IMG/VR virus record: IMGVR_UViG_3300025735_000005
Reading direction: 5' to 3' (one strand)
DNA length: 64,000 bases
DNA from: a virus
Taxonomy: Duplodnaviria > Heunggongvirae > Uroviricota > Caudoviricetes
The notes under the pieces are model-generated. The model worked only from the letters and a program-made list of their open reading frames with translations, had not been told where the DNA came from and did no database searches. How positions within the stretch are numbered: the first letter of the stretch is position 1; each line of letters starts with the position of its first letter. Made by a program: the position numbers and the translations under genes. Of this stretch, positions 2,221 through 41,544 are shown piece by piece.

Positions 2221-2813
2221 TACAGCCTCTCAATAAGCTTAATAGAGCCGAGGTCCATTAGAATACCATCATCGAATACCATACCCATTACAGTATCGGT
2301 ATCATAAAGACAATTCATAATGACATCGTCGCGATGTGTAAAAGACGTATTTGACACGGCAGTACGCAAAGTAGGATATATACCCACATTGCCGATTCCT
2401 GTTAGATCTGTCGTAGTCATGTACACCTTTGAATGATTAGAGAACCTAATAAAAGTACCTTTAACAATCCGACCTGCATTGCCAGTGACGGCGAGGGAAC
2501 TTGCCCCCGCCGCACCAGTTGCTAGAGGAGTGCTAGTAGAGGTACGCCCTTTAATAACACCAATGTTCTGAGGAACGATAATTGTAACCGCTTCTGAGTA
2601 CCCATGGGTAATCAAGTTCACGAATAGATCCTGTGCACCGCCAGACAAAGGCTCGAGGCGGGTTTCTAATTCCCACCTCTGAGCCGGACGACGGCTTACA
2701 GCCCTCTTCAAGGACAAGGTATCCGATACGAAGACGGGACTATTTGACTTCAGAGTCATAGGTACGACGAACTGAGCGATAACAACACCGTTTTCGTAGA
2801 TACCGTAAGCCAT
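2220..2813 (-). CDS. minor tail protein (distal tail/tip assembly)
   Basis: 197-aa ORF directly after tape measure gene with 1-nt stop/start overlap; position analogous to lambda M/L. Confidence 0.35.
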   Translation of the reverse strand: MAYGIYENGVVIAQFVVPMTLKSNSPVFVSDTLSLKRAVSRRPAQRWELETRLEPLSGGAQDLFVNLITHGYSEAVTIIVPQNIGVIKGRTSTSTPLATGAAGASSLAVTGNAGRIVKGTFIRFSNHSKVYMTTTDLTGIGNVGIYPTLRTAVSNTSFTHRDDVIMNCLYDTDTVMGMVFDDGILMDLGSIKLIERL

Positions 2814-17915: not shown

Positions 17916-20900
17916 TTACCCTACACCGTACCAACCATAGTTATTTTCAAAGTCATACGGTACTTCTTCAAGCACTTGCTCTTGTGTTAGGATATCGTCT
18001 TCTGTAAGTACCTTACCACCAATCACAGACCTTCCTGCGACAGGCACTAGCCCTTTATCAATAGCGTCATTCAACAGCTGATCATAAATATCTTGAGGCA
18101 GACCTCTGTTTTTCATCTCATCCAGCGTCATAATGATAGGATTTTTATCCATAACCTTAGCGTAGATTTGGCGAAGAGCAGATCTGCCAGGAAGCATATC
18201 GGCAATATTAGTAAAGAAAGCGTCATGTACAGTGGAGGTAGCTACATTGTTAGCTTTACCCCAAAGATGAAACCGCTTAACAATGACAGCATCATTTGAA
18301 TGGTTTGCATTAACACCAAAAGCAGTGCCGGCTTTGATGGGATTAGCGATGTCATTGATAGTGCCCGACTTATTAAGTACTTGATCCCACCAGCTCGCTG
18401 CTGTCTTTTGTGGAATCATAAGGATATTAGTTTGCCAATTACCATCTTTATCTTTGTAAACTAAACGTTCTTCAAATGTTTGCGTGAAGGACTGATTGAT
18501 TACCTTTCCATCAAAGTTGACAGAGGGTACATAAGTCCAGCTCTTCGGCAAATCATTCATGTTGGTGTACAGTAGCGTGATTTCAGAAGCCTTTTCAACA
18601 TCCTTGAAACCAGTCACACCAAACTTTGAGGCGATATCTGCGATTGGTACGCCACCAACGCTAAGATCTAGCTTAAACAACTTTCGTCCTAGGGCACGTT
18701 CGCCTGGCTTTTCAACACCAAGGATTAGGTCTGCTAACCCACTTTCAGGCTTCCAATCAGTAAAGACCCGCTGCAGCAGTTCTGCTGTAACAGTGGTGTT
18801 TGGTGGAAGCCCTAAGTAACGCGCAAGCTCTTTACCGATAGGACCACGTCCTGGGCCTTTACGTTCACGCCCTGTCAGTGCGTATGAGGCAATTTTCTTC
18901 CAATTCAAACTGCTGTCTGATGGCTTGGCATTTGCTAGAAAGGCTTGAGCCATGCGTCTGAAGAAGGGACTAAACTCCTTTAGGATAGGCACTTGCTCAT
19001 TCAGATGGTCTGACATGATTCGGGCTACAGCTTCGAAGTCTTTAGGCGTCACGATTTCATCATACGCTTGAGACATCTTCTCTACTAGCTCGCGTGTTTT
19101 AGGCTCCAGGAACCAGAGTTCTGCCATGATTTCGTCGCCAGGTTGCTGACCTTTATTGAAGACATCTACAATATCCTTACGTAATTCGGCAAGCATGTCA
19201 GCGCCTTCTGGATCGTATCGAAGCAGACGTGCCCTCCTGGCATCAATCTCATTCAATACGGTCTGACGTTCTCCGGATGTAACCACAAGAGTATTATCAC
19301 GTTTACCGAGTACCTTACCAAGCTTTCCTTCTACATTCATGATGCCAGTTCTTTCACCAGCGCCGTAAAAGGTCACCATATTTTGGGCTTTAGCTGCTTT
19401 TTGCAGATCTTTAAGCTTCAACCCCAATCGTTCATTTAGGGTCTTAAAGCGAGGATCATTATAAGTAGCTGCAGCAATTTCGTCGTATAGACGTCGCTTT
19501 TGGCTAGTCGGAACCACGTTAGACAGTGACGCCAGTGCTCTGTTTCTAGTTGTAAGTGCAATAATCTGGGCACCCGACGATGATGCGTCCTGCTCCATAG
19601 CAAGGCCAGTCATTAGGTTATCTAGCGTTCCGCCACTTGTTACATGGTTCTCTATTTTAGCTGCTTCAATTGCAAAACGAAAGAACTTACCTAGCTCTTC
19701 ACCTTCAACTTCGGCAACAATATCGCTTTCTAGGATTGCCCTAATATCTGCAGGCCTAGCAGACAACATCTGTTTACCAATGTTTACAAGATCTGGCCAC
19801 CACTTCTCAGCGATGCGTTGCCTACCTCTGAACGTCAGACTATCATAATTACCCTCAAAGAAATCAGCTAGACCACCTAGAAAGCTTCCTATCTGATCTG
19901 TGAAGGCATCATACCCTGCTTTTCCCATTGGTTTTAGTGCAGCTGTGTTGAGGAAAGGGCGAAAGCTTTCACCACTCTGCGCTGAGATATAGCCACGATC
20001 GTAGACACGACCACGGTGGTCTACAAACGGCAGATTAGTGAACGTTTTACCGCGCAGCCATTGCATTGCTTTAAAACGTTCATAAGCATCGCCGCGAGAG
20101 GTAATATACTTACGATAATGATTAAGATCGTCATACTTCTTTGAATTACCTCTATCATCCTTAAAGTATAGAAGCTTTTCAATGAAGTTATGGAAATCTG
20201 AATCAACTGTGTACGCGGCTTTACCAGCCCAATTGAGGGCATCAGCCAAATCTTTATCTACAAAGTCACGAGTAACTTCTGAAGAAGTAATTGACTGGCG
20301 AGTGTTGTACCAGAGGCCGTTTCTTTTAGTGTAGTATGTGGTATAGCCAGGGCGAATCACCAGACCATTGTCAAAGGTGGCCGGAATACGCATACCAACT
20401 TCAATTTTACGCTCCAAAAGGCCATACTCGATTAGCCGAGGATCCAGCAGCCGGATGTAGTAAGAGACAGTATCATAGTACGGACCGAAGTATCTACCAG
20501 AGACGCTAGAACGCATTCTACGCTTTTGAACACCGAATGTATCAATGTCAAACAAATGTCCGGCCTTGCGCTCCAACAGCTTAACACCCAGCTCGTACCA
20601 ATCGCGACGATTGCCATTAAGATTTGCTGTATTATAAAGGCTTCTGCCTAGGTAAACAGCCAGAGCATCTCTATCGCTGCCCTCTCGAACCAATCTATGA
20701 GCAAACTGCTGATAAAATGATTGAAGCTGCGCATCAGATAGACGACGCTTGATCTTCAGTGGAATGCCGGGATCGAAGAAGCCTCGCAGCTCGTTTGCAA
20801 TTGTAGGAGCAACACGGTCTTCCCACTTGTTACGTGCAACAATATTATCAACTAGCCCTTTTTGGAGTTCATCAAGCTGAGTTCGACCTAGAACAGGGTC

Positions 20901-22571
20901 AATATACTCATCTTCCAGAAGCTTCTTAAGAACATCTTTATCACGGCGCAGCTGTGTTTCGATAGCATCCGAGATATTCATTACATCGAATTTCATCTGG
21001 CTATTTAAAACAGCTTTAAGGTTGCCCCAGGGCTGCCCATTCTGCCGAAAGCGGCCAATGACAATACGAAGGTTATCAGCAATAACAGAGCGCTCATTCA
21101 TACCCATCTTCATTGACAGGTCATCCATGACTTGCTTAATAAAAGCTTTATCTTGGTCTTTTAGAAGATCACTGTCATCCACACGGCGCAAGGCACCTGC
21201 GTAGACATCGCCGTTAGGCTGATAAATACGAACGTCATCGTATCTCTGTGTTAGAGGATTGAAGCGAAGCTGTTCTTCCTTTGGCGGTGTTGAAAGAACT
21301 CTATTGCGAGTCAATCGCTTATTACCAAGGTTGATACCACGGTAGGAAGTAAACGAAAGATTACCGTTGAGGTCACCTGCTTGAAGGAGGTAGTAATCTA
21401 CCAGCGTCTTGCGGATATCCTGCAGCTCCTCAGGTCTAGCAGCACCGAGTTGCATCGCGTCCAGACGTTGTTTTGCATCAGCAAATTTACGAGTATCACC
21501 AGGTACTACGTAATCGGCATCAGTAAGCTGTCGAAGCTCCTTAATACCAATATTATTACCCTTAGCATTAGTGAATTGGTCAACGGTCAATTCACCACTA
21601 TTCAACATCTCAACTTTCTTATACTCGCCAAGATGCCTCAATTGAACAGCTACGGGTTGCCTTTTGAGCCAGTCATTGTAGCTTTCCCGTAACGGCGTCT
21701 GACCATCGTAGAACTTTTTCTGTGCTTCTGTGAGCCCTTGTAGGTTTCTCCTACGGACTTCTGCGACGCTTTCCAGATTCGCGACATCTGACCAACTTTT
21801 GAAGACAGGTATGGAAGTAGAGCGACAATTCCAATGAGCTGGAGGAAGATGCTCCACATCACCGACCGGGTAGATTGTTCCATCACGATGGGCACACAAG
21901 GGAGTAGTACGGCTGTCCAAAACAGCAACGTATTGCCAACCTTGGATTGCTTTTTCGTTAGCTTTATAGACTTCATGATCAGCCTGATTATGGACAGACG
22001 TGATTGACGTTGTTACCAGCGTCTGTGATTGTTGCTTTGTAATGCTGTGAAGGTTGCCTTTACGAACAGCCAGAGCAATGTCTTGCATGCTATCACCATT
22101 AGCGATGCCACGGCGAATGATTTGCTCAATACGCTTGCGTTCATTTACAGAGACGCCCAACCAGCCTTGCTCTAGAGTCTTATCTGCGTAAAGAGGACGT
22201 TCAAGTACAACTTCTTCAGCCACACGTCTAGTCGGCCTCTGTGTGCGCCAAATCTTGCCCATCACGTTTTCTACGTTTTGATAAGCAAACGATACTTGGT
22301 CATTGAATAGATCTAAAAGCGAGCGACGCATGGTAGAATGGACTTCAGTAAAGGTATCCTGTAGCTCCTGATCTACAGCCTCTCTAAGACGTGCTAAGCC
22401 TTTGTCACTTTTCTCTGCGTCTACTACAAGCTTATCCAGACGAACAGCGTGGCCGTCAAGTACCAGTTCTACTTTACCCTGGACACGTCGTTCGTATAAG
22501 CGGATCATAGCCGCTCTATCAATAACCTTGTCATAAAGTTCAGTATTAGCATTGACGGCCTTCATTATCAT
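17916..22571 (-). CDS. fusion protein: N-terminal Mu F / SPP1 gp7-like head morphogenesis domain + C-terminal T7-like single-subunit DNA-dependent RNA polymerase (1551 aa)
   Basis: N-terminal region carries the Phage_Mu_F signature (WQYVAVLDSRTTPLCAHRDGTIYPVGDVEHLPPAHWNCRST). C-terminal region carries ssRNAP motifs: motif A AMEQDASSSGAQIIA (cf T7 DGSCSGIQHF, Asp537), motif B region MVTFYGAGERTG (cf MTLAYGSKEFG), motif C STVHDAFFTNIAD (cf HDSFGT, His811/Asp812). Confidence 0.85.
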   Translation of the reverse strand: MIMKAVNANTELYDKVIDRAAMIRLYERRVQGKVELVLDGHAVRLDKLVVDAEKSDKGLARLREAVDQELQDTFTEVHSTMRRSLLDLFNDQVSFAYQNVENVMGKIWRTQRPTRRVAEEVVLERPLYADKTLEQGWLGVSVNERKRIEQIIRRGIANGDSMQDIALAVRKGNLHSITKQQSQTLVTTSITSVHNQADHEVYKANEKAIQGWQYVAVLDSRTTPLCAHRDGTIYPVGDVEHLPPAHWNCRSTSIPVFKSWSDVANLESVAEVRRRNLQGLTEAQKKFYDGQTPLRESYNDWLKRQPVAVQLRHLGEYKKVEMLNSGELTVDQFTNAKGNNIGIKELRQLTDADYVVPGDTRKFADAKQRLDAMQLGAARPEELQDIRKTLVDYYLLQAGDLNGNLSFTSYRGINLGNKRLTRNRVLSTPPKEEQLRFNPLTQRYDDVRIYQPNGDVYAGALRRVDDSDLLKDQDKAFIKQVMDDLSMKMGMNERSVIADNLRIVIGRFRQNGQPWGNLKAVLNSQMKFDVMNISDAIETQLRRDKDVLKKLLEDEYIDPVLGRTQLDELQKGLVDNIVARNKWEDRVAPTIANELRGFFDPGIPLKIKRRLSDAQLQSFYQQFAHRLVREGSDRDALAVYLGRSLYNTANLNGNRRDWYELGVKLLERKAGHLFDIDTFGVQKRRMRSSVSGRYFGPYYDTVSYYIRLLDPRLIEYGLLERKIEVGMRIPATFDNGLVIRPGYTTYYTKRNGLWYNTRQSITSSEVTRDFVDKDLADALNWAGKAAYTVDSDFHNFIEKLLYFKDDRGNSKKYDDLNHYRKYITSRGDAYERFKAMQWLRGKTFTNLPFVDHRGRVYDRGYISAQSGESFRPFLNTAALKPMGKAGYDAFTDQIGSFLGGLADFFEGNYDSLTFRGRQRIAEKWWPDLVNIGKQMLSARPADIRAILESDIVAEVEGEELGKFFRFAIEAAKIENHVTSGGTLDNLMTGLAMEQDASSSGAQIIALTTRNRALASLSNVVPTSQKRRLYDEIAAATYNDPRFKTLNERLGLKLKDLQKAAKAQNMVTFYGAGERTGIMNVEGKLGKVLGKRDNTLVVTSGERQTVLNEIDARRARLLRYDPEGADMLAELRKDIVDVFNKGQQPGDEIMAELWFLEPKTRELVEKMSQAYDEIVTPKDFEAVARIMSDHLNEQVPILKEFSPFFRRMAQAFLANAKPSDSSLNWKKIASYALTGRERKGPGRGPIGKELARYLGLPPNTTVTAELLQRVFTDWKPESGLADLILGVEKPGERALGRKLFKLDLSVGGVPIADIASKFGVTGFKDVEKASEITLLYTNMNDLPKSWTYVPSVNFDGKVINQSFTQTFEERLVYKDKDGNWQTNILMIPQKTAASWWDQVLNKSGTINDIANPIKAGTAFGVNANHSNDAVIVKRFHLWGKANNVATSTVHDAFFTNIADMLPGRSALRQIYAKVMDKNPIIMTLDEMKNRGLPQDIYDQLLNDAIDKGLVPVAGRSVIGGKVLTEDDILTQEQVLEEVPYDFENNYGWYGVG

Positions 22572-28975: not shown

Positions 28976-29279
28976 TACGTTCGGAGATCTTATCCAGTTT
29001 AATGTTGAAGTCCGAGAAGATCTCCTTCAGCTCGACCTTCGTAACATACTGCTTTGCTAGGAGAAGCTCCAGGTTACCTACACGATCGAGACGATTGAGC
29101 AGTTCCCTATGCTTCTCATCAATGTCTGACTTAGGCATATAAGTCTCTGTCACCCTCAATTTAAAGGCATCAAAGTCCTTTCTATGCTCCTTACTATCAG
29201 CCCAAATGGTTTTCATCCACCAGCCGCCTGCGGTCGCAACCAGAGACAGTACAGCTAGCAGGATTTGCTCAGTGCTCAT
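28962..29279 (-). CDS. membrane-anchored coiled-coil protein (N-terminal TM helix; i-spanin-like topology)
   Basis: 105 aa: hydrophobic ILLAVLSLVATAGGWWM followed by charged coiled-coil segment. Confidence 0.3.
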   Translation of the reverse strand: MSTEQILLAVLSLVATAGGWWMKTIWADSKEHRKDFDAFKLRVTETYMPKSDIDEKHRELLNRLDRVGNLELLLAKQYVTKVELKEIFSDFNIKLDKISERIERR

Positions 29280-29782
29280 TAGAAGTTGAACCCTCTTGCC
29301 GTTGCCTTGCGTGCTACCCTGATTGGGTGTAGATACTCTGTAGCGTAACGAACGCCATCAGAGAAGTGTTCTACACCATCCTTCTTGTCGATGGTGGCAG
29401 TATTGGGGTTATTATCCACCCACTTAGTCCGCTCCATAGAGAGGATAAGGTTAGGACACTTAATAGGATCAAATAGCATACCTCCATGATGAAGCATGCC
29501 GTTGACAGCATTGACGCTGTCCACCATGGATGGTGCTTTATTGTGTGCCAAGCAGCGAATACCATGGCTTTCCAGAATGGCAAAGTCAGTACGCCCAACC
29601 ATAGCAGAAGTCTTGCGAGCTCTACCAGAAGGGTCTGGATAAGCAAAGATACGCCGCTTGCCGTTGTCGTAGCGCCCTTTGATTGCTACAGCCAACTGTT
29701 CTGTATCAGGATGTCCCATGAACTCATCAAGCCATTGCATCTGTTTGCCGCGATGCGCAAAGACACCAGAGGCTTGTATCAA
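29279..29782 (-). CDS. terminase large subunit, C-terminal nuclease portion (second exon/fragment)
   Basis: 167-aa ORF (track start is TTG; first ATG gives MQWLDEF... at ~29740) with RNase-H-like terminase nuclease features (IFAYPDPSG..., ILESHG, DGVEHFSDGVRYATEY); in-frame stop at 29801-29803 limits exon to <=29800. Confidence 0.55.
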   Translation of the reverse strand: MIQASGVFAHRGKQMQWLDEFMGHPDTEQLAVAIKGRYDNGKRRIFAYPDPSGRARKTSAMVGRTDFAILESHGIRCLAHNKAPSMVDSVNAVNGMLHHGGMLFDPIKCPNLILSMERTKWVDNNPNTATIDKKDGVEHFSDGVRYATEYLHPIRVARKATARGFNF

Positions 29783-30367
29783 ATTGTTCAGTAGATGGCG
29801 TTAACATCTACCCGACTATTGGAGAAGATATGTAGCAGCTTGTGCTAGATTATAGATACTGTCTTTAAAAGCCCCTAATCCTGTGTTGCAGTGTCCACAT
29901 AAAATACCACGGATGGTACCAGTTGTATGACAATGATCAACAACAGCAGCGTCGCCTGTATTATCCTGCCGACCTGCTCTAAAATGTACAGGATTACGAC
30001 ATATTGCGCAGCAACCGTCTTGCTGTTCTAAAATTGCATCGCGTTCATGAAGCTCTATCCCAAATTTACGGCGATAGTACCACTCAGCTTGCTTTTCCTT
30101 AGCGCATTGCTTGCAATAAGTCTGTCGGCCATCAGCACGTCTAGCGTGAGGGCCGAAATATTCGTAAGGCTTTTTAATTTTACAGTAAGTACAAATTTTC
30201 AATTTATATCTCCAAAGTCCGCTATATGTTACCATATAGATCAGACTATATCATCAGTTGCCTTTAGTGACTATTTCTCAAGTCCAGCACTGCCTGGCGC
30301 TTCCGTTACACTTGTAACGTACTCCCCTGCGGGATAGTCGTTGCACCTTCCTCTTACGAGGCTTGGC
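29783..30367 (-). mobile_element. intervening sequence splitting terminase large subunit (candidate group I intron carrying HNH ORF)
   Basis: Terminase ATPase ORF stops at 30368 and nuclease ORF resumes by 29800; the 585 nt between contain the HNH ORF flanked by hairpin-rich non-coding sequence (e.g. tcccgcagggga, cgttacaagtgtaacg). Confidence 0.45.
29816..30235 (-). CDS. HNH homing endonuclease
   Basis: 139 aa with CxxC...CxxC zinc knuckles and AVVDHCHTTGTIRGILCGHCN (HNH core). Confidence 0.8.
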   Translation of the reverse strand: MVTYSGLWRYKLKICTYCKIKKPYEYFGPHARRADGRQTYCKQCAKEKQAEWYYRRKFGIELHERDAILEQQDGCCAICRNPVHFRAGRQDNTGDAAVVDHCHTTGTIRGILCGHCNTGLGAFKDSIYNLAQAATYLLQ

Positions 30368-31288
30368 TCAGAGTTGTCCCATAAGGATATTCTCTGAATT
30401 CACCAGGTTTAGTATGTGGGCATACAGTTCACCCACGTTAAAGTCGATAGCTACATGCACATCCTCGTGTTCTCCCAGAGGCTCTAGCGTCTTGTTATGC
30501 TTAGCGCGTTCATAGGAGTAGAACACCATATTACCAGAGTCCATGAAGGACGCCATATATTCCGCAGCAAAGGCCCGTGGATCCATAGTACTCTTCAGCG
30601 CTACGATTTCTTCTGGGTCTAGAAAAGGAGAACCAGTATAGTCATAATGATAAGAGTTCCAGGTAGGGTCTTTCTCGTGGAAATGATGAAGCTCATGAAA
30701 GAAATCATAGCCATTAGGTGTAGAAGCAAAGACAGCACGACCAGGACTTCTAGCACCATAGCGACGTGCGTTTGCAGGAGACCAGCGGGTGCTGATGCAG
30801 GGTCGTACAATAGACTCCCAAGCAGCTTTTGCGCCAATACCCTTAGTGCAGGTGGTGACTTCGTCCCAGCCAACGAAATAATAGCCCTTACCGCGCATAC
30901 GCTGTACTGCTTCAAAAGACAGCAGGCGAAGTTCTACATTATTTGGGAGGACAAAGCGGCCTTCATCTTGGCTCGCCTTAATGGCAATTTCTTCCAGCCC
31001 CATATCCTGAGCCAGGATAGGGTAAAAGATGTCTGTAACCTGATCGTATGTCGGGGCAATAATACCTACACGTTTGTTAGGAACGTTTCTAGGTAACGCC
31101 ATAAGCTCATGCACTGCAGTTGCAGCACAGGCAGAGAGGAAGTATGATTTACCCCAGCCACGAGCACAGCATACAGACACAAAGCGGTGAGCTTGATCAA
31201 TAAAGAGATCTTCGTAAGCATCGCTCTGCCCGTAGTGGAGATCAATCACACCTGCAACTCCAAAGGGCAAGCTTCTTGGCCAGTACAA
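30368..31288 (-). CDS. terminase large subunit, N-terminal ATPase portion (first exon/fragment)
   Basis: 306 aa with Walker A CARGWGKS and Walker B YYFVGWDEV; ends with VAIDFNVGE resembling the first catalytic-Asp strand of the nuclease domain, then stops. Confidence 0.8.
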   Translation of the reverse strand: MYWPRSLPFGVAGVIDLHYGQSDAYEDLFIDQAHRFVSVCCARGWGKSYFLSACAATAVHELMALPRNVPNKRVGIIAPTYDQVTDIFYPILAQDMGLEEIAIKASQDEGRFVLPNNVELRLLSFEAVQRMRGKGYYFVGWDEVTTCTKGIGAKAAWESIVRPCISTRWSPANARRYGARSPGRAVFASTPNGYDFFHELHHFHEKDPTWNSYHYDYTGSPFLDPEEIVALKSTMDPRAFAAEYMASFMDSGNMVFYSYERAKHNKTLEPLGEHEDVHVAIDFNVGELYAHILNLVNSENILMGQL

Positions 31289-32444: not shown

Positions 32445-32470
32445 GCCTCGGATTATTGCCTATAAAGCTT

Positions 32471-32553
32471 AAAAAAAAAATAAATAAGCCGCCCCTCAGG
32501 GAGCATTAACCCTACAGCCCTAAGGCCATAAGATCAATGCTCCCTGAGGGGCG
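32471..32553 (-). terminator. rho-independent terminator for leftward transcription (18-bp stem, then T10)
   Basis: Plus strand A10-TAAATAA followed by inverted repeat cgcccctcagggagcatt ... aatgctccctgaggggcg; on minus strand hairpin is followed by CTTATTTATTTTTTTTTT. Confidence 0.75.
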
Positions 32554-32771: not shown

Positions 32772-32995
32772 ATTGTTTGCCGGGAATCACTTTCAAAATA
32801 CCTACATCATTATAAGTAATATAATCACCTACCTTGATCCGGGAGGATTCTACACGCCATCCGTCATGAAATGAAATACGCCCACTAGTGATTGCCTTCT
32901 GCAGCCATTGTGGCGATTCACTGAAACAAAGCGCCCATGTTCATAGTCTATAGAAACAAATTTAACAGCTTCAACAGGCTTACACCTATACTTCA

Positions 32996-33277
32996 TTAGC
33001 TTAGCTCTTTAATACGACGCTTCACAAAAGCCAGTCGGACAATATCCAGATGCTGTGTTTGTCCCTCTTGTGCGGCTTGGTAGGCTGTACTCCCGAAAGG
33101 AAATAAACTTTCACCTGCGTGTATTTCTAGATCTACCTCTACTGAGCAGTTGCCCCAAGTCTTTGCATTTTCGCAAAGACCACAACGTTTCATAGTCTCT
33201 TCATAAGGAACCGTGTAACCGGCGGCAAGGGCTTCAGCTAGATCTAGCCATTCTTTATAGAAGTCAAGGAGGTCCAT
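32996..33277 (-). CDS. paralog-family protein (1 repeat unit)
   Basis: 93 aa; unit pattern LxFYKxWL...GLCxNA..WGNCS...H...FPFG..Y....TQHL...RL.FV.RRI.EL. Confidence 0.5.
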   Translation of the reverse strand: MDLLDFYKEWLDLAEALAAGYTVPYEETMKRCGLCENAKTWGNCSVEVDLEIHAGESLFPFGSTAYQAAQEGQTQHLDIVRLAFVKRRIKELS

Positions 33278-33821
33278 CGGTCAATTCCTTAATACGGCGC
33301 TCAACAAAATCAATCCTATTTGGATTTATATTTTGTGTGCCATAATACCAGTCGTACTTGTACGCAACCTCTCCAAAAGGGTATATTTGATCACCAAAAT
33401 GATATTTGATGTCTGCTAGCACAGTAGCACCACAACCCATTTCTTCTGCATTAATACAAAGGCCAGCCGCCCTGACTGCATACGAAGGATTTTTGCTGTT
33501 AGCGTCCGCCAACCATGCTTCATAAAACTTAAGTAGCTCGAGCTCTGTTATACGTTTCCTAACAAAAGTTAAACGTTGACAATCTAGATGTTGAGTCCTT
33601 CTCGCATGATGATAATTATATCTAGTTTCACCGAAAGGATACTCTGGATCTTTTGTATGAGCAGCTAGATCATCGTATAGAGCATCGCTGCAGTTTCCCC
33701 AAACCTGCGCATTACTGCACAAACCATAATCTTCTAAGAAAAGCGAGTAAGGCACCGCTATACCGCTAGCGAGCGCTGTTGCGCGCTCAAGCCATGTTTT
33801 GTAAAACTCAAGCAAGTTCAT
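33264..33821 (-). CDS. paralog-family protein (2 repeat units)
   Basis: 185 aa containing two copies of the same ~90-aa unit. Confidence 0.5.
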   Translation of the reverse strand: MNLLEFYKTWLERATALASGIAVPYSLFLEDYGLCSNAQVWGNCSDALYDDLAAHTKDPEYPFGETRYNYHHARRTQHLDCQRLTFVRKRITELELLKFYEAWLADANSKNPSYAVRAAGLCINAEEMGCGATVLADIKYHFGDQIYPFGEVAYKYDWYYGTQNINPNRIDFVERRIKELTDGPP

Positions 33822-34080
33822 TGAGTTGTTCCCTCACCCACGCAAGACGCTTCGGATTTCTATGAGCAAATCCACCAATGGTTTCTCGTAGGTAATCATA
33901 ACCGCTTTCGTTGAAAGGATAGGTCTCTTTGAACTTAGGCATAGCCTTAAATACCTCAGGCGCGTACCTGGCGGCAACAAAGCACAAACCGCCGTGCTTT
34001 ATATTTTCTTTGAAGCTCTCAGGGTAACTTGCATCACCCTCAGCGGCTGCTAAGTAATCTTTAAAGAATTCACGAAGCAT
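33808..34080 (-). CDS. paralog-family protein (1 diverged unit)
   Basis: 90 aa, diverged version of unit (GGLC...YPF..G..Y....AHRNP.RLAWV). Confidence 0.45.
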   Translation of the reverse strand: MLREFFKDYLAAAEGDASYPESFKENIKHGGLCFVAARYAPEVFKAMPKFKETYPFNESGYDYLRETIGGFAHRNPKRLAWVREQLNELA

Positions 34081-34645
34081 ATAGGCTCTCCAATTTACAG
34101 CGGACCCAATCGAGCCGCGTTTGGTTCAAATGCTGTGTTTCTTTTGCCTTTGCGCGCATATACTCATGCATATCGTCATGAAAAGGTGCCGCCGTGGTGA
34201 TATCTAGATTTGCGAGCACATCAGGCCCGCCGTAGGTTTCGGCATTCATGCAGAGGCCACAGGTTCGCATCGTGCGTAGCCGCTCTTTAATAATCTTTGA
34301 GACATCACCACTATTCGCCATAGCCATTGCAATTTCGAGGTATTCCTCAAGAAATTGAATGGTCTTCAAACGAAGAATCTCGTTGGCAATCCAAGTCAGT
34401 CGCTGCTGATTTTCATGCTGTGTGCCTGTATGAGCCGCGCACCAATACTCAGCACCCGATGTGTTGAATGGCCACTGACTTTTTGTATGAAAACGCTTTA
34501 ATAGGTCATCACCACCACCGTATAGCACACAAAGACCATGTACACGAACGTCATCAGCAGGTGATGCAGGGGTAACGTAACAACCAGCATGCACCGCCTT
34601 GACATCTTTTAAGTACTTCTGAAGAAACTGCAAAAGGTTCGACAT
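34070..34645 (-). CDS. paralog-family protein (2 repeat units)
   Basis: 191 aa with two units (HGLCVLYGG...WPF...Y...TQHENQQRLTW; CGLCMNAETYGG...PF...TQHLNQTRLDWV). Confidence 0.5.
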   Translation of the reverse strand: MSNLLQFLQKYLKDVKAVHAGCYVTPASPADDVRVHGLCVLYGGGDDLLKRFHTKSQWPFNTSGAEYWCAAHTGTQHENQQRLTWIANEILRLKTIQFLEEYLEIAMAMANSGDVSKIIKERLRTMRTCGLCMNAETYGGPDVLANLDITTAAPFHDDMHEYMRAKAKETQHLNQTRLDWVRCKLESLYAS

Positions 34646-34781
34646 AAGATGATCCTACTGTTAATCAAGGTTTGACGTGTTATCTGACATAAAACTGCAG
34701 TTTAGGAATGAGCTCTTCAAGAGTTATTTGTGTATCATCAACTAGAAGATTCACTATAATGGCAGCCGTGACCTCTCTCAA

Positions 34782-35219
34782 TCATTTTGCCAACTCAAAG
34801 AGTTGATCACCGTGTTTACTGTCTAATACAGTATCTTCAATCTTCCAGCGCAAAACGTTGAAGCCCCATGATCGCAGTGTCGTCACCACAAACAGTGTTT
34901 CGCGTTTGATCTGATACAAGCTCTTGTGACGTCCCGTGATAAATCCAGTTGGTTCTTTGTCTTTGTGCATTTCAAAAGTAGCGAGTTTCCAGTTGCTGAA
35001 AGCGTCTTCTATACGCTTACCAGCGAGTTCTGTCTCCGCATTTCTTTCAAAATTGACATGGGCTTCATAATAAAGTCGAGCTTCTCTCATTTCTTTACTC
35101 TCCTGTAGTTTATAATCGGCGGGCTGTGGAGTACATGCACACCCGCGCCACCACAACCAGGGCATGTCCACCACTGCAACCCATACAGTGTAGTTAGCAG
35201 AGAACCTGAGCCTTTGCAA
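34782..35219 (-). CDS. hypothetical protein
   Basis: 145-aa ORF (true start may be internal ATG). Confidence 0.3.
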   Translation of the reverse strand: MQRLRFSANYTVWVAVVDMPWLWWRGCACTPQPADYKLQESKEMREARLYYEAHVNFERNAETELAGKRIEDAFSNWKLATFEMHKDKEPTGFITGRHKSLYQIKRETLFVVTTLRSWGFNVLRWKIEDTVLDSKHGDQLFELAK

Positions 35220-35222
35220 ACG

Positions 35223-35672
35223 CTACAGATCATACACAACCGGCTGTATATGGGTGAATTCCTCTTCAATAATCTTTTCTACAACAGACCATTCGCCATT
35301 CGCTAAGCCACAACCGATACGTGGCAGTGCTATAGCTGCTGTAAAAGGAGCACATTGTTTATTAACAGTTTCACAGCAAAGCCGCAGTGCGGCGTAGCTA
35401 ATATAGCGACGTGTCCTATCTCTACCATACATGCGTTGTGTGATTGCATTGATGATCATCTTATCGCTGCCATGCGCAATAATAATCTGACCTAAATACA
35501 AACGACCACCCTGGTCATTATAGACCTTGTAATATCTTTGATAAGCTTCAGACCACCTGTCTCGTATAGCTTTCGCTACACCAGATTGCATTACACCTTG
35601 TGCGTTGCAACCATGCATGATATATGGCTCTTCGCAATCCAACAGATTGCCTTTCTTGTAGATAATCTTCAT
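35223..35672 (-). CDS. macro-domain protein (ADP-ribose binding / ADP-ribosyl hydrolase)
   Basis: 149 aa: KGNLLD...HGCNAQGVMQSGVAKAI and PRIGCGLANGEW match macro-domain signature blocks. Confidence 0.65.
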   Translation of the reverse strand: MKIIYKKGNLLDCEEPYIMHGCNAQGVMQSGVAKAIRDRWSEAYQRYYKVYNDQGGRLYLGQIIIAHGSDKMIINAITQRMYGRDRTRRYISYAALRLCCETVNKQCAPFTAAIALPRIGCGLANGEWSVVEKIIEEEFTHIQPVVYDL

Positions 35673-35741
35673 TAAGGTAATGCCCTTTACAAGCCTGACT
35701 TAACCGCACACGATTATTTATTGATAATCGCTTCTCTCCTG

Positions 35742-36197
35742 TCACCACCCCTTCCACCATTGATTGCCGGGAGTCTGCATATCTGCGTAGAAGTTTTGAA
35801 TAACAGATTCAGGAACTTTATGTTCTTCAGGCCGCTTTGAATTGCGCTCTAACAAAGTTTTAAGTGACAGATCAAACAGTTTGACGGTGGGTTGAATCCG
35901 CAGCTCATTATAAAAGGGTTCTACATTACGCCAATGAATGCCGGTATCACTCAGCAGAACTTCTTTGTACCAGTGGTAGCCGGCTCGAAGAGCTCCCAGC
36001 ATGGCTGGTGTAACCACACGAGATTTATTGCTGTAATGCAATGGGTGCTCTTGGTACGCTTGCCTTGATCCAAAGATGGCTTCTCTAAACTTGTCACGCT
36101 CCAGCCTAAGTACATAAGGCCTTGTTGCACAGTATTCATCTGCCCATGTGCTTTTACCAGAGCCTGGGCATCCAACTGTGACAATAAACTTATTCAT
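35742..36197 (-). CDS. polynucleotide 5'-kinase (T4 Pnk kinase-domain-like)
   Basis: 151 aa: TVGCPGSGKSTWA P-loop and LLERNSKR closely parallel T4 Pnk (TIGCPGSGKSTWA ... LVKRNSKRG). Confidence 0.75.
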   Translation of the reverse strand: MNKFIVTVGCPGSGKSTWADEYCATRPYVLRLERDKFREAIFGSRQAYQEHPLHYSNKSRVVTPAMLGALRAGYHWYKEVLLSDTGIHWRNVEPFYNELRIQPTVKLFDLSLKTLLERNSKRPEEHKVPESVIQNFYADMQTPGNQWWKGW

Positions 36198-36378
36198 CTG
36201 TCAAATACTCCTCAAGAAAACCATCTTCTATAAGCTTTGCAGTGAATGTCTCTCGTGTCCAGCCTTCTCCGTACATTTGCTCTCTAAATTTTTCACTGAA
36301 ATGATCTTTAATCATTTCATCAAGGATATCGTCATCTATAACAAGCGTCTGAACACCCATTATTGAGCTTCTCTCCAT
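36190..36378 (-). CDS. hypothetical small acidic protein
   Basis: 62-aa ORF. Confidence 0.3.
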   Translation of the reverse strand: MERSSIMGVQTLVIDDDILDEMIKDHFSEKFREQMYGEGWTRETFTAKLIEDGFLEEYLTDE

Positions 36379-36560
36379 GCTTTTTCACGACTAAAACGTG
36401 TGCTGCCAACTGAACCTTTACGCATACGCTTCTTTACAGCAATGCCGAAAACCTCTGGGTATTTGTCTCTACCACAAAGAACGCAGCAGAGTGCGTCACC
36501 CATACCGCCTCCGCCATCAAGGACACGCGCATGGATGCCCATAAAACACAAAATGTTCAT
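36360..36560 (-). CDS. hypothetical small protein
   Basis: 66-aa ORF. Confidence 0.25.
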   Translation of the reverse strand: MNILCFMGIHARVLDGGGGMGDALCCVLCGRDKYPEVFGIAVKKRMRKGSVGSTRFSREKAWREAQ

Positions 36561-36569
36561 ATTTTAATC

Positions 36570-37100
36570 CTATAGTAGACTTTTCAAATCGACAGTACCG
36601 CGATACTCTAGAGGGATCTGATCCCAGACCATACTGAACAGCGCTCGATTGCCACGTGTAAGCACAGCCATCAGTTGTACTTTTTCAGGAAAGTAAACCC
36701 TGCTGAAACCGGGGTCACGTCCGACGATCGTGCGCGTATTGCTGTAGAGGTCTGCTAGCTTGATGGTATGAACTTCATCTTGAGCAGCGCCCAGACGATC
36801 CCTTGACAAAGCTTTACGAGTTGCTCGGTTACCCTTCTCCATATCCGAAAGCGCCATAACATATGACGTCACAACAGGACCAAATACAACCCTAAGCTCA
36901 GCTTCAGTCACATTGCAATCTTCAACAACATCGTGGAGGAGAGCCGCCTGCTGCATTTCTACAGAGCCGCCGAAGTTGCGCACCAGCATCATCACTTCAA
37001 TAGGGTGCACAATATAGGGTTCGCCCGTGTACTTGCGCTCCTGATCAACGGCGCAATGCGCAGCAGTGGCGTAAACAAGAGCACGATTAACTTCATTCAT
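36570..37100 (-). CDS. HD-domain phosphohydrolase, SpoT/Mesh1-like (p)ppGpp-hydrolase family
   Basis: Track ORF 36570..37226 in a frame overlapping the upstream gene; likely start at internal ATG (MNEVNRALVYATAAH...). Motifs YIVHPIEVMMLV and AALLHDVVED match the HD signature of RelA/SpoT hydrolase domains. Confidence 0.6.
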   Translation of the reverse strand: MNEVNRALVYATAAHCAVDQERKYTGEPYIVHPIEVMMLVRNFGGSVEMQQAALLHDVVEDCNVTEAELRVVFGPVVTSYVMALSDMEKGNRATRKALSRDRLGAAQDEVHTIKLADLYSNTRTIVGRDPGFSRVYFPEKVQLMAVLTRGNRALFSMVWDQIPLEYRGTVDLKSLL

Positions 37101-37887
37101 AATTAGTTTCCTTACAATACGCCGAATTCGTCGTGGACTTGTTTGCCTTAGTGAGAAAGTACCGCTTAGCGATATCCGAAATAGGTTTACCCAAATCTTT
37201 ATGAGTAAACCCACTTGCGGCAACACGATCAGACTCTTCTTTCATAACGTCTGCAAACACCCAACGAAGGTAGTGTCCGATATTACGCAGCTCAAACGCA
37301 TGCTCTTGCAAGAATATCTGCAAACCCTGCTCAAGCCGATTTTCAGTAACGATCGCAGCGATCAAATCATCCTTGCGCGCAATAGCTTCTACGTCAACTT
37401 CAACAAGTTTACTTACCTTTGAGACGCTGTGCTTTTCGCCTTTTACCTTAAACCAGTATCTGCTATCTGAATACTCAGTATCGACGGGCTTCCATACAAT
37501 ACCTTCGCCAATTCCACTAACATCAGCTAGCTGTTTAGCGACAGGGCATTCCGCTTCTACAGCGGAGGTATATTCTACCAGCCTGTTTTGCACAAGTTCG
37601 GGCTGATTGAAATCAATTTCAACCATCCAATTTGGAAAATCATGAATACAATAAATATTATAATCACTAAATGCAATTAGACGTAGGTTCCTAATATCTA
37701 ACCATTCGTCGCCAGCGCGTACTGCAAACACCACAAAGTGTTTAGCGGAAAGATGGTTAATACCGACGCCTCTTTGAATGCCAGGTCCGCACCATTCGCC
37801 AAAAAGAGTGTATTGCTTAGACTTGCTGTATATACTATGCACCAAGTCGAATACTGCAGGTAGGACGCTGGTCTCTAGAGTACTCAT
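37093..37887 (-). CDS. RNA ligase (Rnl2-like), C-terminal portion as annotated; motif I lies upstream of the ATG
   Basis: Motif IV EGIVWKP and motif V WFKVKGEKH in the 264-aa ORF; the same frame continues upstream to 38097 and encodes motif I GTVKLHGTNAG (cf T4 Rnl2 EKIHGTNF) without any in-frame ATG/GTG/TTG. Confidence 0.55.
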   Translation of the reverse strand: MSTLETSVLPAVFDLVHSIYSKSKQYTLFGEWCGPGIQRGVGINHLSAKHFVVFAVRAGDEWLDIRNLRLIAFSDYNIYCIHDFPNWMVEIDFNQPELVQNRLVEYTSAVEAECPVAKQLADVSGIGEGIVWKPVDTEYSDSRYWFKVKGEKHSVSKVSKLVEVDVEAIARKDDLIAAIVTENRLEQGLQIFLQEHAFELRNIGHYLRWVFADVMKEESDRVAASGFTHKDLGKPISDIAKRYFLTKANKSTTNSAYCKETNYE

Positions 37888-39197: not shown

Positions 39198-40559
39198 TTA
39201 GAAATCCTTTGCACGATTGCGGACTTCATCGAAAGTATGCTTAACAAGCAGTTCGCCATCTCGCCACACAGGCTGCATGAGATCAACAGCATGATGCGAG
39301 AGATGATCAGTGCGAATAGCACGATATTGACCGTCGTATTCGATAACAGATTGGCGGCCAGCCTTGCTTGCCTTTTGGATGCTGCCAGTAGGCGTCTTCT
39401 GAACATCCCGCCAGCCATCGCCGTAATTAACAGCATTCATCTTCATGGCAAAGCTGAGTGTATCGCGATCGACTTTCTGAAGAAGACCACCGCCCATGCC
39501 AAATACGATATTATCCAGCGAGAAGCCGGCATGAATGATATTGCGGATAAGTTCCTCAATAGAATCCTCATTCATACCATCGCCTTGAATAACACGTACG
39601 TGCGAGTCCAGAACACGGTATCCCTTACTGTTTACAGTACCACCAAAAGCTTCCCACAACTTGTGCATGATATCGATCGATACCGTCGTAGGGTTGCCGC
39701 TATCAGGCCGAACAACAAGAGTGCCATTGCGTTCAAGAATCTCTTCCTTGAGACTATAGCACCAAGCCTTACGTACGGCACGTTCCAGGTCATAGCTATC
39801 CGAAACGATCGATACAAGACCATCAGGAAAACTCTTGAGAATGTGATGATACGCATTGTATTCGCGTTCACGTCCCCAGCTAGTAATAGTGCTGTGCTCG
39901 GCCGCAGGGATATTGAAGCCGGGCATACCAGCCTTGTAATAGTGCTGCGCATGGAGAATGCCAGCGAGGGTATCCGTGCTGCTGAAATTTAGCAAATGCG
40001 CCATGCCACCCAGAGCAGCGCTTTCCCGGCTGCTGGCACCACGAGCACCCATATCGTGCAGTTTGAATTCGATCTGGCCGTCAGGGTCATCACTGCTGAT
40101 CAACAGACCGCGATAAATGATCTTACGGCATTTTGCCGACAGCGTAGCAACCGTAGAAGGATACCATGTTGTGCGCGTCAAATCCGTGTCGATGAAGTTA
40201 GGCAGCCACGGGAAGCGTGGATCTGTGTTGACAACCTCAAATAGCGGTGTACCACAAGGAACTGCAATCCCTTCAGGCAAGGCGCGGATTTCCAGTGGTA
40301 GATAGCCCAGATTTTCCAGATCACGAAAGCCCTTATCATTAAAAGGGATGCCGTGGGCCGCGAGCACATCTGCGCATTCTTCGATCATATCAAGGTCTGG
40401 CGCATCCATACTGTCCATCAACGTAGGTTGCAGACCAAAGAAGATCATGCGATGGCTGAAATTGTTGATGCGTGCCTCGCCGTAGACAGAAGCGTACTTC
40501 ATTTCCGGCGGATACTGCATAAAGTGCGAGTGCTTATAGCTATCAACATCAAAAATCAT
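39198..40559 (-). CDS. nadV: nicotinamide phosphoribosyltransferase (NAMPT/NadV)
   Basis: Start taken at internal ATG (MIFDVDSYKHSHFMQYPP, cf human NAMPT ATDSYKVTHYKQYPP); FGMGGGLLQKVDRDT matches NAMPT GSGGGLLQK block; length ~453 aa. Confidence 0.8.
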   Translation of the reverse strand: MIFDVDSYKHSHFMQYPPEMKYASVYGEARINNFSHRMIFFGLQPTLMDSMDAPDLDMIEECADVLAAHGIPFNDKGFRDLENLGYLPLEIRALPEGIAVPCGTPLFEVVNTDPRFPWLPNFIDTDLTRTTWYPSTVATLSAKCRKIIYRGLLISSDDPDGQIEFKLHDMGARGASSRESAALGGMAHLLNFSSTDTLAGILHAQHYYKAGMPGFNIPAAEHSTITSWGREREYNAYHHILKSFPDGLVSIVSDSYDLERAVRKAWCYSLKEEILERNGTLVVRPDSGNPTTVSIDIMHKLWEAFGGTVNSKGYRVLDSHVRVIQGDGMNEDSIEELIRNIIHAGFSLDNIVFGMGGGLLQKVDRDTLSFAMKMNAVNYGDGWRDVQKTPTGSIQKASKAGRQSVIEYDGQYRAIRTDHLSHHAVDLMQPVWRDGELLVKHTFDEVRNRAKDF

Positions 40560-40560
40560 T

Positions 40561-41544
40561 TCAAAACCCCTTGTAAAAAGCCATGTGGTAGTGGTCTTCA
40601 AAGTATTGTGTTGGATGAACTGCGTGCTCATGCATCCAGCCAGCCCAGGATGCATCATCCTTACCCTGAGGCGCTGGCATGTCTACGTTGTCAGGAATTT
40701 CTATGTAAGCGGCATGAGTGATGATACGCCCTCGCAAGCTGCGTTCAGGATCATCAAAGATATGCCAACCAACAATGTATTGCGGATCGATGAGAAGTCC
40801 TGTCTCTTCCTCGACTTCTCTAAGCATACCTCTTTCGATACGCTCGTCAGGTTCAAGAAATCCTCCTGGCGCTGCATATAGGTTTTTACCTACAGCACCG
40901 CCGCGCTTGATAAGAAGTCTTTTGTCACGCCAGCGGATAATACCATCAACTGTGACAAAAGGACCAGTCCCATATTTAAGGCGATCCTTATCTACACCTT
41001 CCTTATAAGACAAGAGCTCCTTGAATGTATCCGTCATCTTGAAATGCTCAAGGAACGTCAAGGTATTTGGTGTGATGTAGGGAGCAGGGATATGAGGCAG
41101 ACGCCGAAGGTACACCTCACGAACATCGCTGGCGGAAAAGGTGCCGTAACTACTGCTAATCTGAATGCTTTCCCACGATGGAAACATATTCAGATAGTAG
41201 CTGGATTTGTCTTTGCCGTAGCCGGTCAGATAGATTATATCTTCAGGCTTGGAGCAAGAGCTGATGAGATTTTCAACGTTTTGCAGCCAATCCGCGTCGC
41301 TGTACGGGTAGTCATCAAGCGGAAGAACCTCCAACCGACCCAGTGCGTGCTCATAAGCAAAGGCGTTACTGATCAGCGATCGACGTTCTTCATATGTGAA
41401 AGGGTTCTTCGGATCTCGGGCTTTATTTGCAGAGCCAACAAGCACAATCAGCCTATCAACCTTTGAAAGAGCTTCCGAAATGACATGCGCGTGACCGATA
41501 TGCATCGGCTGAAAGCGCCCGATAAAAACGCCTATTTTGCTCAT
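40561..41544 (-). CDS. natV: bifunctional NMN adenylyltransferase / Nudix ADP-ribose pyrophosphatase (NatV/NadM-Nudix)
   Basis: N-terminal GRFQPMHIGH ((H/T)xGH nucleotidyltransferase motif); C-terminal Nudix box GGFLEPDERIERGMLREVEEETG. Confidence 0.8.
   Translation of the reverse strand: MSKIGVFIGRFQPMHIGHAHVISEALSKVDRLIVLVGSANKARDPKNPFTYEERRSLISNAFAYEHALGRLEVLPLDDYPYSDADWLQNVENLISSCSKPEDIIYLTGYGKDKSSYYLNMFPSWESIQISSSYGTFSASDVREVYLRRLPHIPAPYITPNTLTFLEHFKMTDTFKELLSYKEGVDKDRLKYGTGPFVTVDGIIRWRDKRLLIKRGGAVGKNLYAAPGGFLEPDERIERGMLREVEEETGLLIDPQYIVGWHIFDDPERSLRGRIITHAAYIEIPDNVDMPAPQGKDDASWAGWMHEHAVHPTQYFEDHYHMAFYKGF

What the first reader, a model, noticed from the sequence alone, without database searches (positions are those of the whole stretch)
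32996..34645. Tandem array of six diverged ~90-aa paralogous units spread over four adjacent genes
Seen directly: ORFs of 93, 185, 90 and 191 aa each contain one or two copies of a unit with the conserved skeleton LxFYKxWL-(A-rich)-...-GLCxNA..WG.CS...-H-...-(Y/F)PFG..Y-...-TQH(L/E)N..RL.(F/W)V..RI.EL.

Inference: conserved Cys/His positions suggest a small metal-binding module. Repeated duplication and divergence of a small early gene family next to an anti-defense island is the pattern seen for host-takeover and anti-defense factors under arms-race selection. I cannot place the unit in any family I know.
Basis: partly seen in the sequence, partly recalled or inferred. Interest (0 to 1): 0.6.

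Follow-up and report, generated by a model that had tools for sequence, protein, structure and literature searches.

The report
Six-copy phage accessory gene cluster
Four adjacent phage genes really do encode six diverged copies of one small helical protein domain; the domain belongs to a widespread phage-only family whose function nobody has tested, and it sits beside known counter-defence genes, so it is a reasonable but unproven candidate for a host-directed or anti-defence factor.

Summary
Four translationally coupled minus-strand genes (93, 185, 90 and 191 aa; 32996-34645) hold six ~90-aa units. A profile built only from outside sequences scores them at 33-76 bits, against 11 bits for the best of 800 shuffles.

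The unit is not an orphan. It belongs to PHROG family phrog_2510 (function unknown), which has 976 representative clusters at 50% identity. Members occur in T7-like, N4-like, T4-like and phAPEC8-like phages and in a prophage, always among small early or accessory genes. It has no match in Pfam, NCBIfam, PADLOC or the PDB. A confident model (pLDDT 94.9) is a six-helix domain with no solved structural relative.

The metal-binding idea is poorly supported. Only one Cys (100%) and one His (97%) are conserved, and many members have a single Cys. Two-unit fusions often lose the His in one half (8 of 17, against 7 of 151 single-unit proteins), which suggests the protein works as a dimer.

Multi-copy expansions also exist in phAPEC8 (7 copies) and a T4-like contig (6). 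This array is therefore the most compact example of a recurrent pattern, not a unique one.

A host-directed or anti-defence role fits the context but is untested.

The parts
34070..34645 (-). Gene D, 191 aa, a two-unit protein. Unit D1 is 34367-34642 and unit D2 is 34082-34360. These are the most diverged units. Both keep Cys, Tyr, His and Arg.
   Evidence: ORF; two HMM domains (33 and 46 bits with the external-only HMM); key residues; an AGGA-type Shine-Dalgarno motif upstream of the start.
33808..34080 (-). Gene C, 90 aa, a single unit. Its start overlaps the end of gene D by 11 nt.
   Evidence: 55 bits. Its closest relatives are external proteins (P0029 at 44% identity), not its neighbours.
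33264..33821 (-). Gene B, 185 aa, a two-unit protein. Unit B1 is 33537-33821 and unit B2 is 33279-33539, fused seamlessly (…ITELE|LLKFYEAW…). B2 has Asn in place of the family His. The start overlaps gene C by 14 nt.
   Evidence: 76 and 60 bits; B2 reads C-Y-N-R.
32996..33277 (-). Gene A, 93 aa, a single unit. It is the closest paralogue of B1 (50% identity). Its start overlaps gene B by 14 nt, and its stop overlaps the next ATG (TAATG).
   Evidence: 66 bits. AlphaFold2 model with pLDDT 94.9 and pTM 0.85, six helices.
32470..32553 (-). Intrinsic terminator that closes the transcription unit containing the array. It is a perfect 30-bp hairpin (32490-32553) followed by a U-rich tract that includes U10 (32470-32489).
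   Evidence: Scan hit, sequence. RNA fold gives -63.3 kcal/mol, z = -10.7, with 0 of 200 shuffles as stable.
34646..34781 (-). A 136-nt non-coding gap upstream of gene D containing one sigma-70-like match (TTGAGA-17-TATAGT, 34781-34753). It may be an internal promoter, but the evidence is weak.
   Evidence: One search found 10 promoter-like sites where 15.5 were expected, so there is no enrichment. No motif from this gap recurs elsewhere in the window.

Best explanation
Shown. The locus is a compact, translationally coupled cluster of four genes encoding six copies of a ~95-aa all-alpha domain. The domain belongs to a phage-specific family (phrog_2510) that is normally single-copy but has expanded repeatedly in some phages.

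Inferred anatomy. Each unit is a six-helix bundle. Its core is built by conserved aromatic and aliphatic residues of helices 1 and 6. A small constellation of conserved residues (G33-L34-C35 at the N-cap of helix 3, P60-F61-G62, Y66, T74-Q75-H76, R81) flanks a segment (positions 36-58) that varies greatly in sequence and length.

Inferred working form. The protein probably works as a dimer. Tandem two-unit fusions are common, and a fusion can afford to lose the His in one half while always keeping the Cys and Arg.

Inferred function (untested). The proteins are host-directed accessory factors made before virion assembly. They bind and neutralise a host protein or defence component, or capture its ligand. 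The conserved Cys/His/Arg site would do the work and the variable segment would set specificity. The six diverged units would then give this phage a panel of specificities, expressed together with its NAD-reconstitution, RNA-repair and Macro-domain counter-defence genes.
For: - Repeat reality and family membership; phrog_2510 at E 1e-11 to 1e-20.
- Family size and architectures: 976 representatives, mostly single-unit, 17 of 168 with two units.
- Phage-only carriers, in early or accessory positions. PP2 gp003 and RSB1 gp05 lie near the left end of T7-like genomes. Alcaligenes N4-like gp73 is the second gene from the genome end, upstream of the RNAP subunits. In phAPEC8 members lie in a run of small genes. 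A Sphingopyxis prophage copy lies between a repressor-like gene and Erf/SSB. On a 140-kb contig a member lies 1.6 kb from a Tad2-like gene.
- Neighbouring counter-defence-type genes in the window; NARP2 definition in bioRxiv 10.1101/2024.02.11.579819.
- No partner gene conserved across lineages, so the family acts as a stand-alone gene.
- Recurrent expansion: 7 copies in phAPEC8 and 6 in T4-like contig L036.
- Conservation pattern: C35 100%, R81 99%, H76 97%, with hypervariable, indel-rich segments at 19-32 and 36-58.
- His lost in one half of 8 of 17 fusions against 7 of 151 single-unit proteins, Fisher p = 8e-6, with Cys and Arg kept in 34 of 34 units.
- Mildly acidic proteins, median pI 5.3.
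- Coupled genes ending at a strong terminator just ahead of the packaging module.
Against: - No experiment or homology links any member to a function. Every named member is 'hypothetical'.
- Location among accessory genes is only guilt by association.
- In this phage the array is mid-genome, and its time of expression is unknown.
- An invariant Cys/His/Arg set fits an enzyme or ligand-binding site at least as well as a protein-binding inhibitor.
- The dimer inference rests on fusion statistics alone.
- C, D1 and D2 may have been acquired separately rather than having diversified in place.
Confidence: 0.4

Rival explanations
1. The unit is a small enzyme, or a small-molecule or cofactor binder such as a signal 'sponge' or a thiol-dependent hydrolase or transferase. 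The invariant Cys at a helix N-terminus would act together with His76, Arg81 and Tyr66. The paralogues would differ in substrate or ligand.
For: C35 is 100% conserved, R81 99%, H76 97% and Y66 90% (98% counting Phe) across sequences only ~30% identical. That is unusually strict for purely structural residues. The Cys lies at the start of helix 3 in the confident model. Losing the His in only one half of tandem fusions is typical of sites that are needed once per dimer. Known anti-defence sponges are similarly small and oligomeric (my own knowledge).
Confidence: 0.25
2. One reading: each unit is a small Cys/His metal-binding (zinc) module.
For: One Cys and one His are nearly invariant. A dimer could in principle build an intersubunit Cys2His2 site, which would also explain why tandem fusions are common.
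Against: Only two candidate ligands per unit are conserved. 20 of 120 members have a single Cys. The 'WG.CS' Cys and the mid-unit His are not conserved even among the six window units. 8 of 17 fusions, and window protein B, lack one of the two His that an intersubunit site would need. No zinc-binding Pfam family matched.
Confidence: 0.08
3. The family serves the phage's own programme rather than targeting the host, for example as a transcription or replication accessory factor, a chaperone or an assembly helper. Extra copies would reflect dosage or subfunctionalisation.
For: The family is present in very different phage types, many with their own RNA polymerases (T7-like, N4-like, and this phage with a Mu-F/RNAP fusion). 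The array sits at the boundary between the metabolism and packaging modules.
Against: It is patchy and varies in copy number (0, 1, 2, 6, 7) among related phages. It lies in hyperplastic regions of small genes rather than in core modules. No core partner gene is linked to it. It is acidic, with no DNA-binding signature.
Confidence: 0.15
4. The array is decaying or selfish DNA with no current function, and the ORFs persist only by chance.
For: D1 and D2 are strongly diverged (33-46 bits). The gene just downstream appears frameshifted.
Against: All six units are intact and in frame, keep the Gly, Leu, Cys, Pro, Phe and Arg invariants, have Shine-Dalgarno motifs and coupled overlaps, and are identical in two independent datasets.
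Confidence: 0.03

Closest known systems
PHROG family phrog_2510 (function unknown)
   Same: All four window proteins match it (E 7e-11 to 1e-20). The two long proteins match twice, and the 219-position profile itself corresponds to a two-unit protein.
   Different: PHROGs gives no function. The window adds a contiguous six-unit cluster. Sequences are only ~25-45% identical to any other member.
Paralogue sets of the same family in Escherichia phage phAPEC8 (phAPEC8_0018, 0019, 0030, 0041, 0044, 0051, 0054) and in T4-like contig L036
   Same: The same domain, six or seven copies per genome region, some as adjacent overlapping gene pairs, all annotated hypothetical.
   Different: There the copies are single-unit genes scattered over 12-20 kb among unrelated small genes. 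Here the six units are back to back in 1.65 kb, and two pairs are fused into two-unit proteins.
Two-unit members such as Pectobacterium phage PP2 gp003 (214 aa)
   Same: The same unit-unit fusion architecture as window genes B and D. PP2 gp003 lies in the early region of a T7-like phage.
   Different: PP2 has a single such gene, whereas the window has two fusions plus two single-unit genes.
Segmental amplification of anti-defence loci in T-even phages (T4 dmd-tifA, eLife 2022, PMC9391042; SegB-driven amplification in T6, PMC13096335)
   Same: Tandem multiplication of small accessory genes in a phage, interpreted as a response to host immunity.
   Different: From my own knowledge of those papers, their copies are recent and near-identical DNA repeats. 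Here the units are only 28-50% identical in protein, and no DNA repeat is detectable. This is old divergence, not a recent 'accordion'.
Small oligomeric anti-defence 'sponge' proteins (Tad1, Tad2, Acb2)
   Same: Similar size, similar genomic setting and a likely oligomeric working form. One family member lies 1.6 kb from a Tad2-like gene.
CRISPR type III small subunits (Cmr5/Csm2)
   Different: These scores are in the range of generic helical-bundle matches, identity is at most 16%, and the Pfam Cas10 hit is at chance level (E 0.024). I do not count this as a relationship.

Membership tests
phrog_2510 (PHROGs v4) | Significant match to the family HMM | tested here: met
   E = 6.6e-11 (A), 1.3e-20 (B, two stretches), 8.9e-11 (C) and 2.7e-20 (D, two stretches).
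The family as delimited here (GLC / PFG / TQH / R-L-A-W-V skeleton) | Recognition by a profile built only from external members | tested here: met
   Six domains at 33-76 bits, against a best of 11 bits among 800 shuffles.
The family as delimited here (GLC / PFG / TQH / R-L-A-W-V skeleton) | Retention of the near-invariant residues G33, L34, C35, P60, F61, Y66, H76 and R81 | tested here: met
   All six units keep G, L, C, P, F, Y and R. His is kept in five of six (B2 has Asn), as in 8 of 17 two-unit relatives.
Any curated domain family (Pfam-A 2025, NCBIfam 20.0) | Score above the curated cut-off | tested here: not met
   No hit above cut-off for the four proteins, for 126 family members, or in NCBIfam including the family consensus.
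Cys/His zinc-binding module | Three or four conserved metal ligands (Cys/His) per unit | tested here: not met
   Only C35 (100%) and H76 (97%) are conserved. 20 of 120 members have one Cys. B2 lacks the His.
Cys/His zinc-binding module | Bound metal | not testable with these tools
   This needs metal analysis of purified protein. An intersubunit site cannot be excluded computationally.
Phage anti-defence / host-takeover proteins | Location among accessory or early genes and other counter-defence genes | tested here: met
   In the window: downstream of Nampt + Nmnat/Nudix, RNA ligase, HD, a kinase and Macro. In relatives: early regions of T7-like and N4-like phages, small-gene runs in phAPEC8 and T4-like phages, and close to a Tad2-like gene.
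Phage anti-defence / host-takeover proteins | Demonstrated inhibition of a defence system or host factor | not testable with these tools
   No member has been characterised.
Known anti-defence protein folds with solved structures | Sequence or structural similarity to a solved protein | tested here: not met
Recent segmental amplification ('genomic accordion') | Near-identical tandem DNA copies | tested here: not met
   TRF finds nothing. The closest pair, A and B1, is 50% identical in protein and clearly diverged in DNA.
Anti-phage defence system component (PADLOC) | Match to a defence-protein model | tested here: not met
   No PADLOC hit for A-D.

The most novel reading that the evidence does not exclude
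phrog_2510 could be a large, structurally new superfamily of phage counter-defence or host-takeover proteins. On this reading they work as dimers or pseudo-dimers through a conserved Cys-His-Arg site next to a hypervariable specificity segment. Arrays such as this one, and the 6-7 copy sets in phAPEC8-like and T4-like phages, would then be panels of inhibitors or ligand traps, each aimed at a different host immune target.
Probability: 0.3. Interest if true: 0.75.

Novelty: new member of a known kind. Interest (0 to 1): 0.4.

Why it matters
If the family is host-directed, it would add a widespread class to the known phage counter-defence repertoire. It has about a thousand 50%-identity clusters and occurs in T7-like, N4-like, T4-like, phAPEC8-like and temperate phages of Proteobacteria. 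It also has a confidently predicted fold with no solved relative.

The family is easy to study. Cultured coliphages (phAPEC8-like) and T7-like phages carry it. Three residues (C35, H76, R81) are obvious mutagenesis targets. The loss of His in one half of fusions gives a concrete structural prediction: one functional site per dimer.

The window's array itself mainly shows how far this family can expand and fuse. It does not reveal the function.

Tried and rejected
- I first guessed that the 3,292-aa ORF marked an N4-like phage. Rejected: it carries a tape-measure domain (TMP_3), not a virion RNA polymerase.
- Megablast of the region against 50,697 phage records found nothing.
- The word-indexed protein search with the six units returned only the window's own proteins plus one other. 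The exhaustive HMM search was needed.
- The first AlphaFold2 run, with 7 sequences, was poor (pLDDT 68.5). I did not use it for fold searching.
- The afdb50 fold library was unavailable.
- The search for related loci failed with the broad alignments. The genome scan that did run used a narrow pattern, so it is not an exhaustive test for cellular homologues.
- Searches for close relatives of this phage in IMG/VR, using gene B and the Macro protein, found none. Copy-number variation among sister phages therefore could not be assessed.
- Longer family proteins gave no informative fused domain, only a sub-threshold SH3-like hit.
- Clustering of neighbouring genes found no partner conserved across lineages.
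- No phage-specific promoter motif was found upstream of gene D. Sigma-70-like sites are not enriched in the region.
- TRF and DNA alignment found no recent duplication.
- The two datasets carrying the array are identical, so there are no polymorphisms to analyse for selection.
- Literature searches for phAPEC8 paralogues, the PHROG id and Phapecoctavirus anti-defence found no characterisation of this family.

Full report

Yes. The window has four minus-strand ORFs at exactly the stated coordinates: A 32996-33277 (93 aa), B 33264-33821 (185 aa), C 33808-34080 (90 aa) and D 34070-34645 (191 aa). All-against-all BLASTP shows that A matches B twice (E 1e-30 and 2e-17), B matches D over its full length, and C matches A and both halves of D (E 1e-7 to 1e-9).

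Splitting B and D gives six ~90-97-aa units. They align over their whole length, with invariant F6, L11, G33-L34-C35, P60-F61, R81 and L92.

As an independent test I built an HMM from 120 external relatives only. It finds six domains at 33-76 bits, while the best of 800 shuffled versions scores 11 bits. No other copy exists in the 64-kb window.

The genes overlap by 11, 14 and 14 nt. Each has a Shine-Dalgarno-like motif, and A's stop overlaps the next start (TAATG). Within B and D the units join seamlessly at the point where separate genes join elsewhere. Fusion by a small indel at an overlapping stop/start junction is therefore the obvious origin, though this is an inference.

**2. What is the unit?**

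It has no Pfam, NCBIfam or PADLOC match. All four proteins match PHROG family phrog_2510, annotated 'unknown function'.

An exhaustive HMM search of 1.84 billion representative proteins found 976 at E<=1e-3 and 73 at E<=1e-10. Most are single units of 90-120 aa, about one in ten has two units, and a few are longer.

Scanning 126 members against Pfam gave nothing. A family profile found no PDB sequence even at E<=10.

**3. Conserved features**

Across 126 sequences that are ~30% identical:
- G33 and C35 are invariant.
- L34, P60, F61 and R81 are at 98-99%.
- H76 is at 97%, V85 at 95%, W84 at 92% and Y66 at 90%.

Helices 1 and 6 carry the conserved hydrophobic face. The segments at positions 19-32 and 36-58 are hypervariable and hold most of the insertions. 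The proteins are mildly acidic, with a median pI of 5.3.

The 'WG.CS' Cys and the mid-unit His are not conserved even among the six units. Twenty of 120 relatives have only one Cys. So at most two ligands per unit are conserved.

One new observation emerged. In two-unit proteins the His is replaced in one half in 8 of 17 cases, against 7 of 151 single-unit proteins (Fisher p = 8e-6 by protein and 1.5e-3 by unit). Cys and Arg are kept in 34 of 34 units. Window protein B follows this rule, since B2 has Asn. I take this to mean that the family works as a dimer in which one His-containing site can suffice. That is an inference. I could not run a multimer model or inspect the model coordinates.

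**4. Where does the family live?**

I found it only in phages, and always among small accessory genes:
- T7-like phages, close to the left end: PP2 gp003, RSB1 gp05 and Providencia MTT.
- An N4-like Alcaligenes phage, where gp73 is the second gene from the end, ahead of the RNAP subunit genes.
- phAPEC8-like coliphages.
- T4-like contigs.
- A 140-kb contig, 1.6 kb from a Tad2-like gene.
- A Sphingopyxis prophage, between a repressor-like gene and Erf/SSB and near an integrase.

Twenty-one of 24 IMG/VR loci have a single unit within ±6 kb. No neighbouring gene family is conserved across lineages.

Expansions do recur. phAPEC8 has seven copies within 12 kb, and T4-like contig L036 has six within 20 kb, including two adjacent overlapping pairs. 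The window's array is therefore the tightest example I saw, and the only one with two fusions, but the pattern is already present, unremarked, in public genomes.

**5. History of the six units**

A and B1 are each other's best match (50% identity), and B2 is next (38%), which indicates local duplication. For C and D2, the best matches are proteins of other phages (44% and 37%). D1 is about equally distant from everything.

TRF finds no DNA repeat, and even A and B1 are well diverged in DNA. The array is therefore old and mixed. It is not a recent amplification of the kind described for T4 dmd-tifA or T6 (PMC9391042, PMC13096335).

**6. Context in this phage**

The window is part of a 79,040-bp metagenomic contig (ENA ERZ27252359). 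The array region is identical in a second dataset, SRR6056556.

All genes run on the minus strand. In transcription order:
- primase/helicase, ribonucleotide reductase and DNA ligase
- Nmnat/Nudix and Nampt
- RNA ligase, an HD phosphohydrolase, a PNK-like kinase and a Macro domain protein
- a 102-aa ORF
- D, C, B and A
- two small ORFs
- a perfect 30-bp hairpin with a U-tract (-63.3 kcal/mol, z = -10.7)
- the terminase and structural genes

Nampt plus Nmnat is the composition of the NARP2 counter-defence pathway (bioRxiv 10.1101/2024.02.11.579819). From my own knowledge, RNA ligase with a kinase, and Macro domains, are classic repair and reversal functions. The 'next to an anti-defence island' remark therefore holds. 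However, the array is mid-genome, and its time of expression is only inferred.

**7. Most likely mechanism**

I favour (confidence 0.4) a host-directed accessory role. On this view, small dimeric helical proteins use a conserved Cys/His/Arg site and a neighbouring hypervariable segment to bind and neutralise a host factor or immune component. The six diverged units would provide several specificities.

The main rivals are:
- a ligand-binding or thiol-dependent enzymatic role, 0.25. This overlaps with the favoured view if the target is an immune signal.
- a phage-internal role, 0.15.
- a zinc module, 0.08.
- non-functional DNA, 0.03.

None can be settled computationally. The decisive experiments are listed separately.

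**8. Novelty and score**

The proteins are new, distant members of a catalogued but uncharacterised family. Multi-copy sets and two-unit fusions already exist in deposited phages. I therefore rate the finding as a new member of a known kind, with moderate interest (0.4).

The value lies in the family rather than in this particular array. It is large and phage-restricted, its predicted fold has no solved relative, it has strikingly invariant residues, and it can be studied in cultured coliphages.

Noticed in passing
window 17916-22571 (-): A 1,551-aa protein combines an N-terminal Mu-F/SPP1-gp7-like head-morphogenesis domain (PF04233, E 3e-16) with segments matching T7-type single-subunit RNA polymerase (PF00940, 25.5 bits against a cut-off of 22; phrog_414). 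This may be a capsid-packaged RNA polymerase injected with the DNA.
   Followed up: partly
window 2813-12691 (-): A giant 3,292-aa ORF whose only recognisable part is a tape-measure domain (TMP_3) at residues 111-299. This is either an extremely long tape measure or a multifunctional ejection protein.
   Followed up: partly
window 29279-31288 (-): The large terminase appears split. An N-terminal ATPase part (30368-31288) is followed by an Endonuclease VII gene (29816-30235) and a 167-aa ORF (29279-29782) with no Pfam hit that might be the terminase C-terminal part. This suggests an inserted homing-type endonuclease.
   Followed up: partly
window 32772-32996 (-): The ORF right after gene A looks like one ~94-aa gene broken by a frameshift near 32905. 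The 48-aa reading frame continues in another frame as '…WLQKAITSGRISFHDGWRVESSRIKVGDYITYNDVG…'. The rejoined protein has no Pfam match.
   Followed up: partly
window 39198-41544 (-): Nampt (PF18127/PF04095) lies next to a bifunctional Nmnat (cytidylyltransferase-like) + Nudix protein. This is the gene pair that defines the NARP2 NAD-reconstitution counter-defence pathway.
   Followed up: partly
window 35223-37887 (-): A block of RNA ligase, an HD_4 phosphohydrolase, an AAA_33 PNK-like kinase and a Macro-domain protein lies immediately upstream of the array. It looks like an RNA-repair and ADP-ribose-reversal module.
   Followed up: no
whole window: The phage is only distantly related to cultured phages. 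Its portal is 43-46% identical to those of Pelagibacter phages Kolga and Aegir, Ruegeria phages DSS3_VP1 and PM1, and EBPR siphovirus 1. Every gene is on one strand.
   Followed up: partly
L017 5293-6444; proteins P0011 and P0013: Some family members have a unit, a ~130-aa insert and a second unit, and P0013 also has a C-terminal tail. Neither the insert nor the tail has a Pfam match.
   Followed up: partly
L034 8098-8355: On a 140-kb metagenomic contig a Tad2-like gene (PF11195) and a YunG-like gene lie 1.6 kb upstream of a family member, and a SIR2-domain gene lies ~9 kb downstream on the opposite strand.
   Followed up: no
window 34782-35090 (-): The 102-aa ORF between the Macro gene and the array has no family assignment. 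Its only hit is a chance-level AbiEi match in PADLOC (E 0.008).
   Followed up: no
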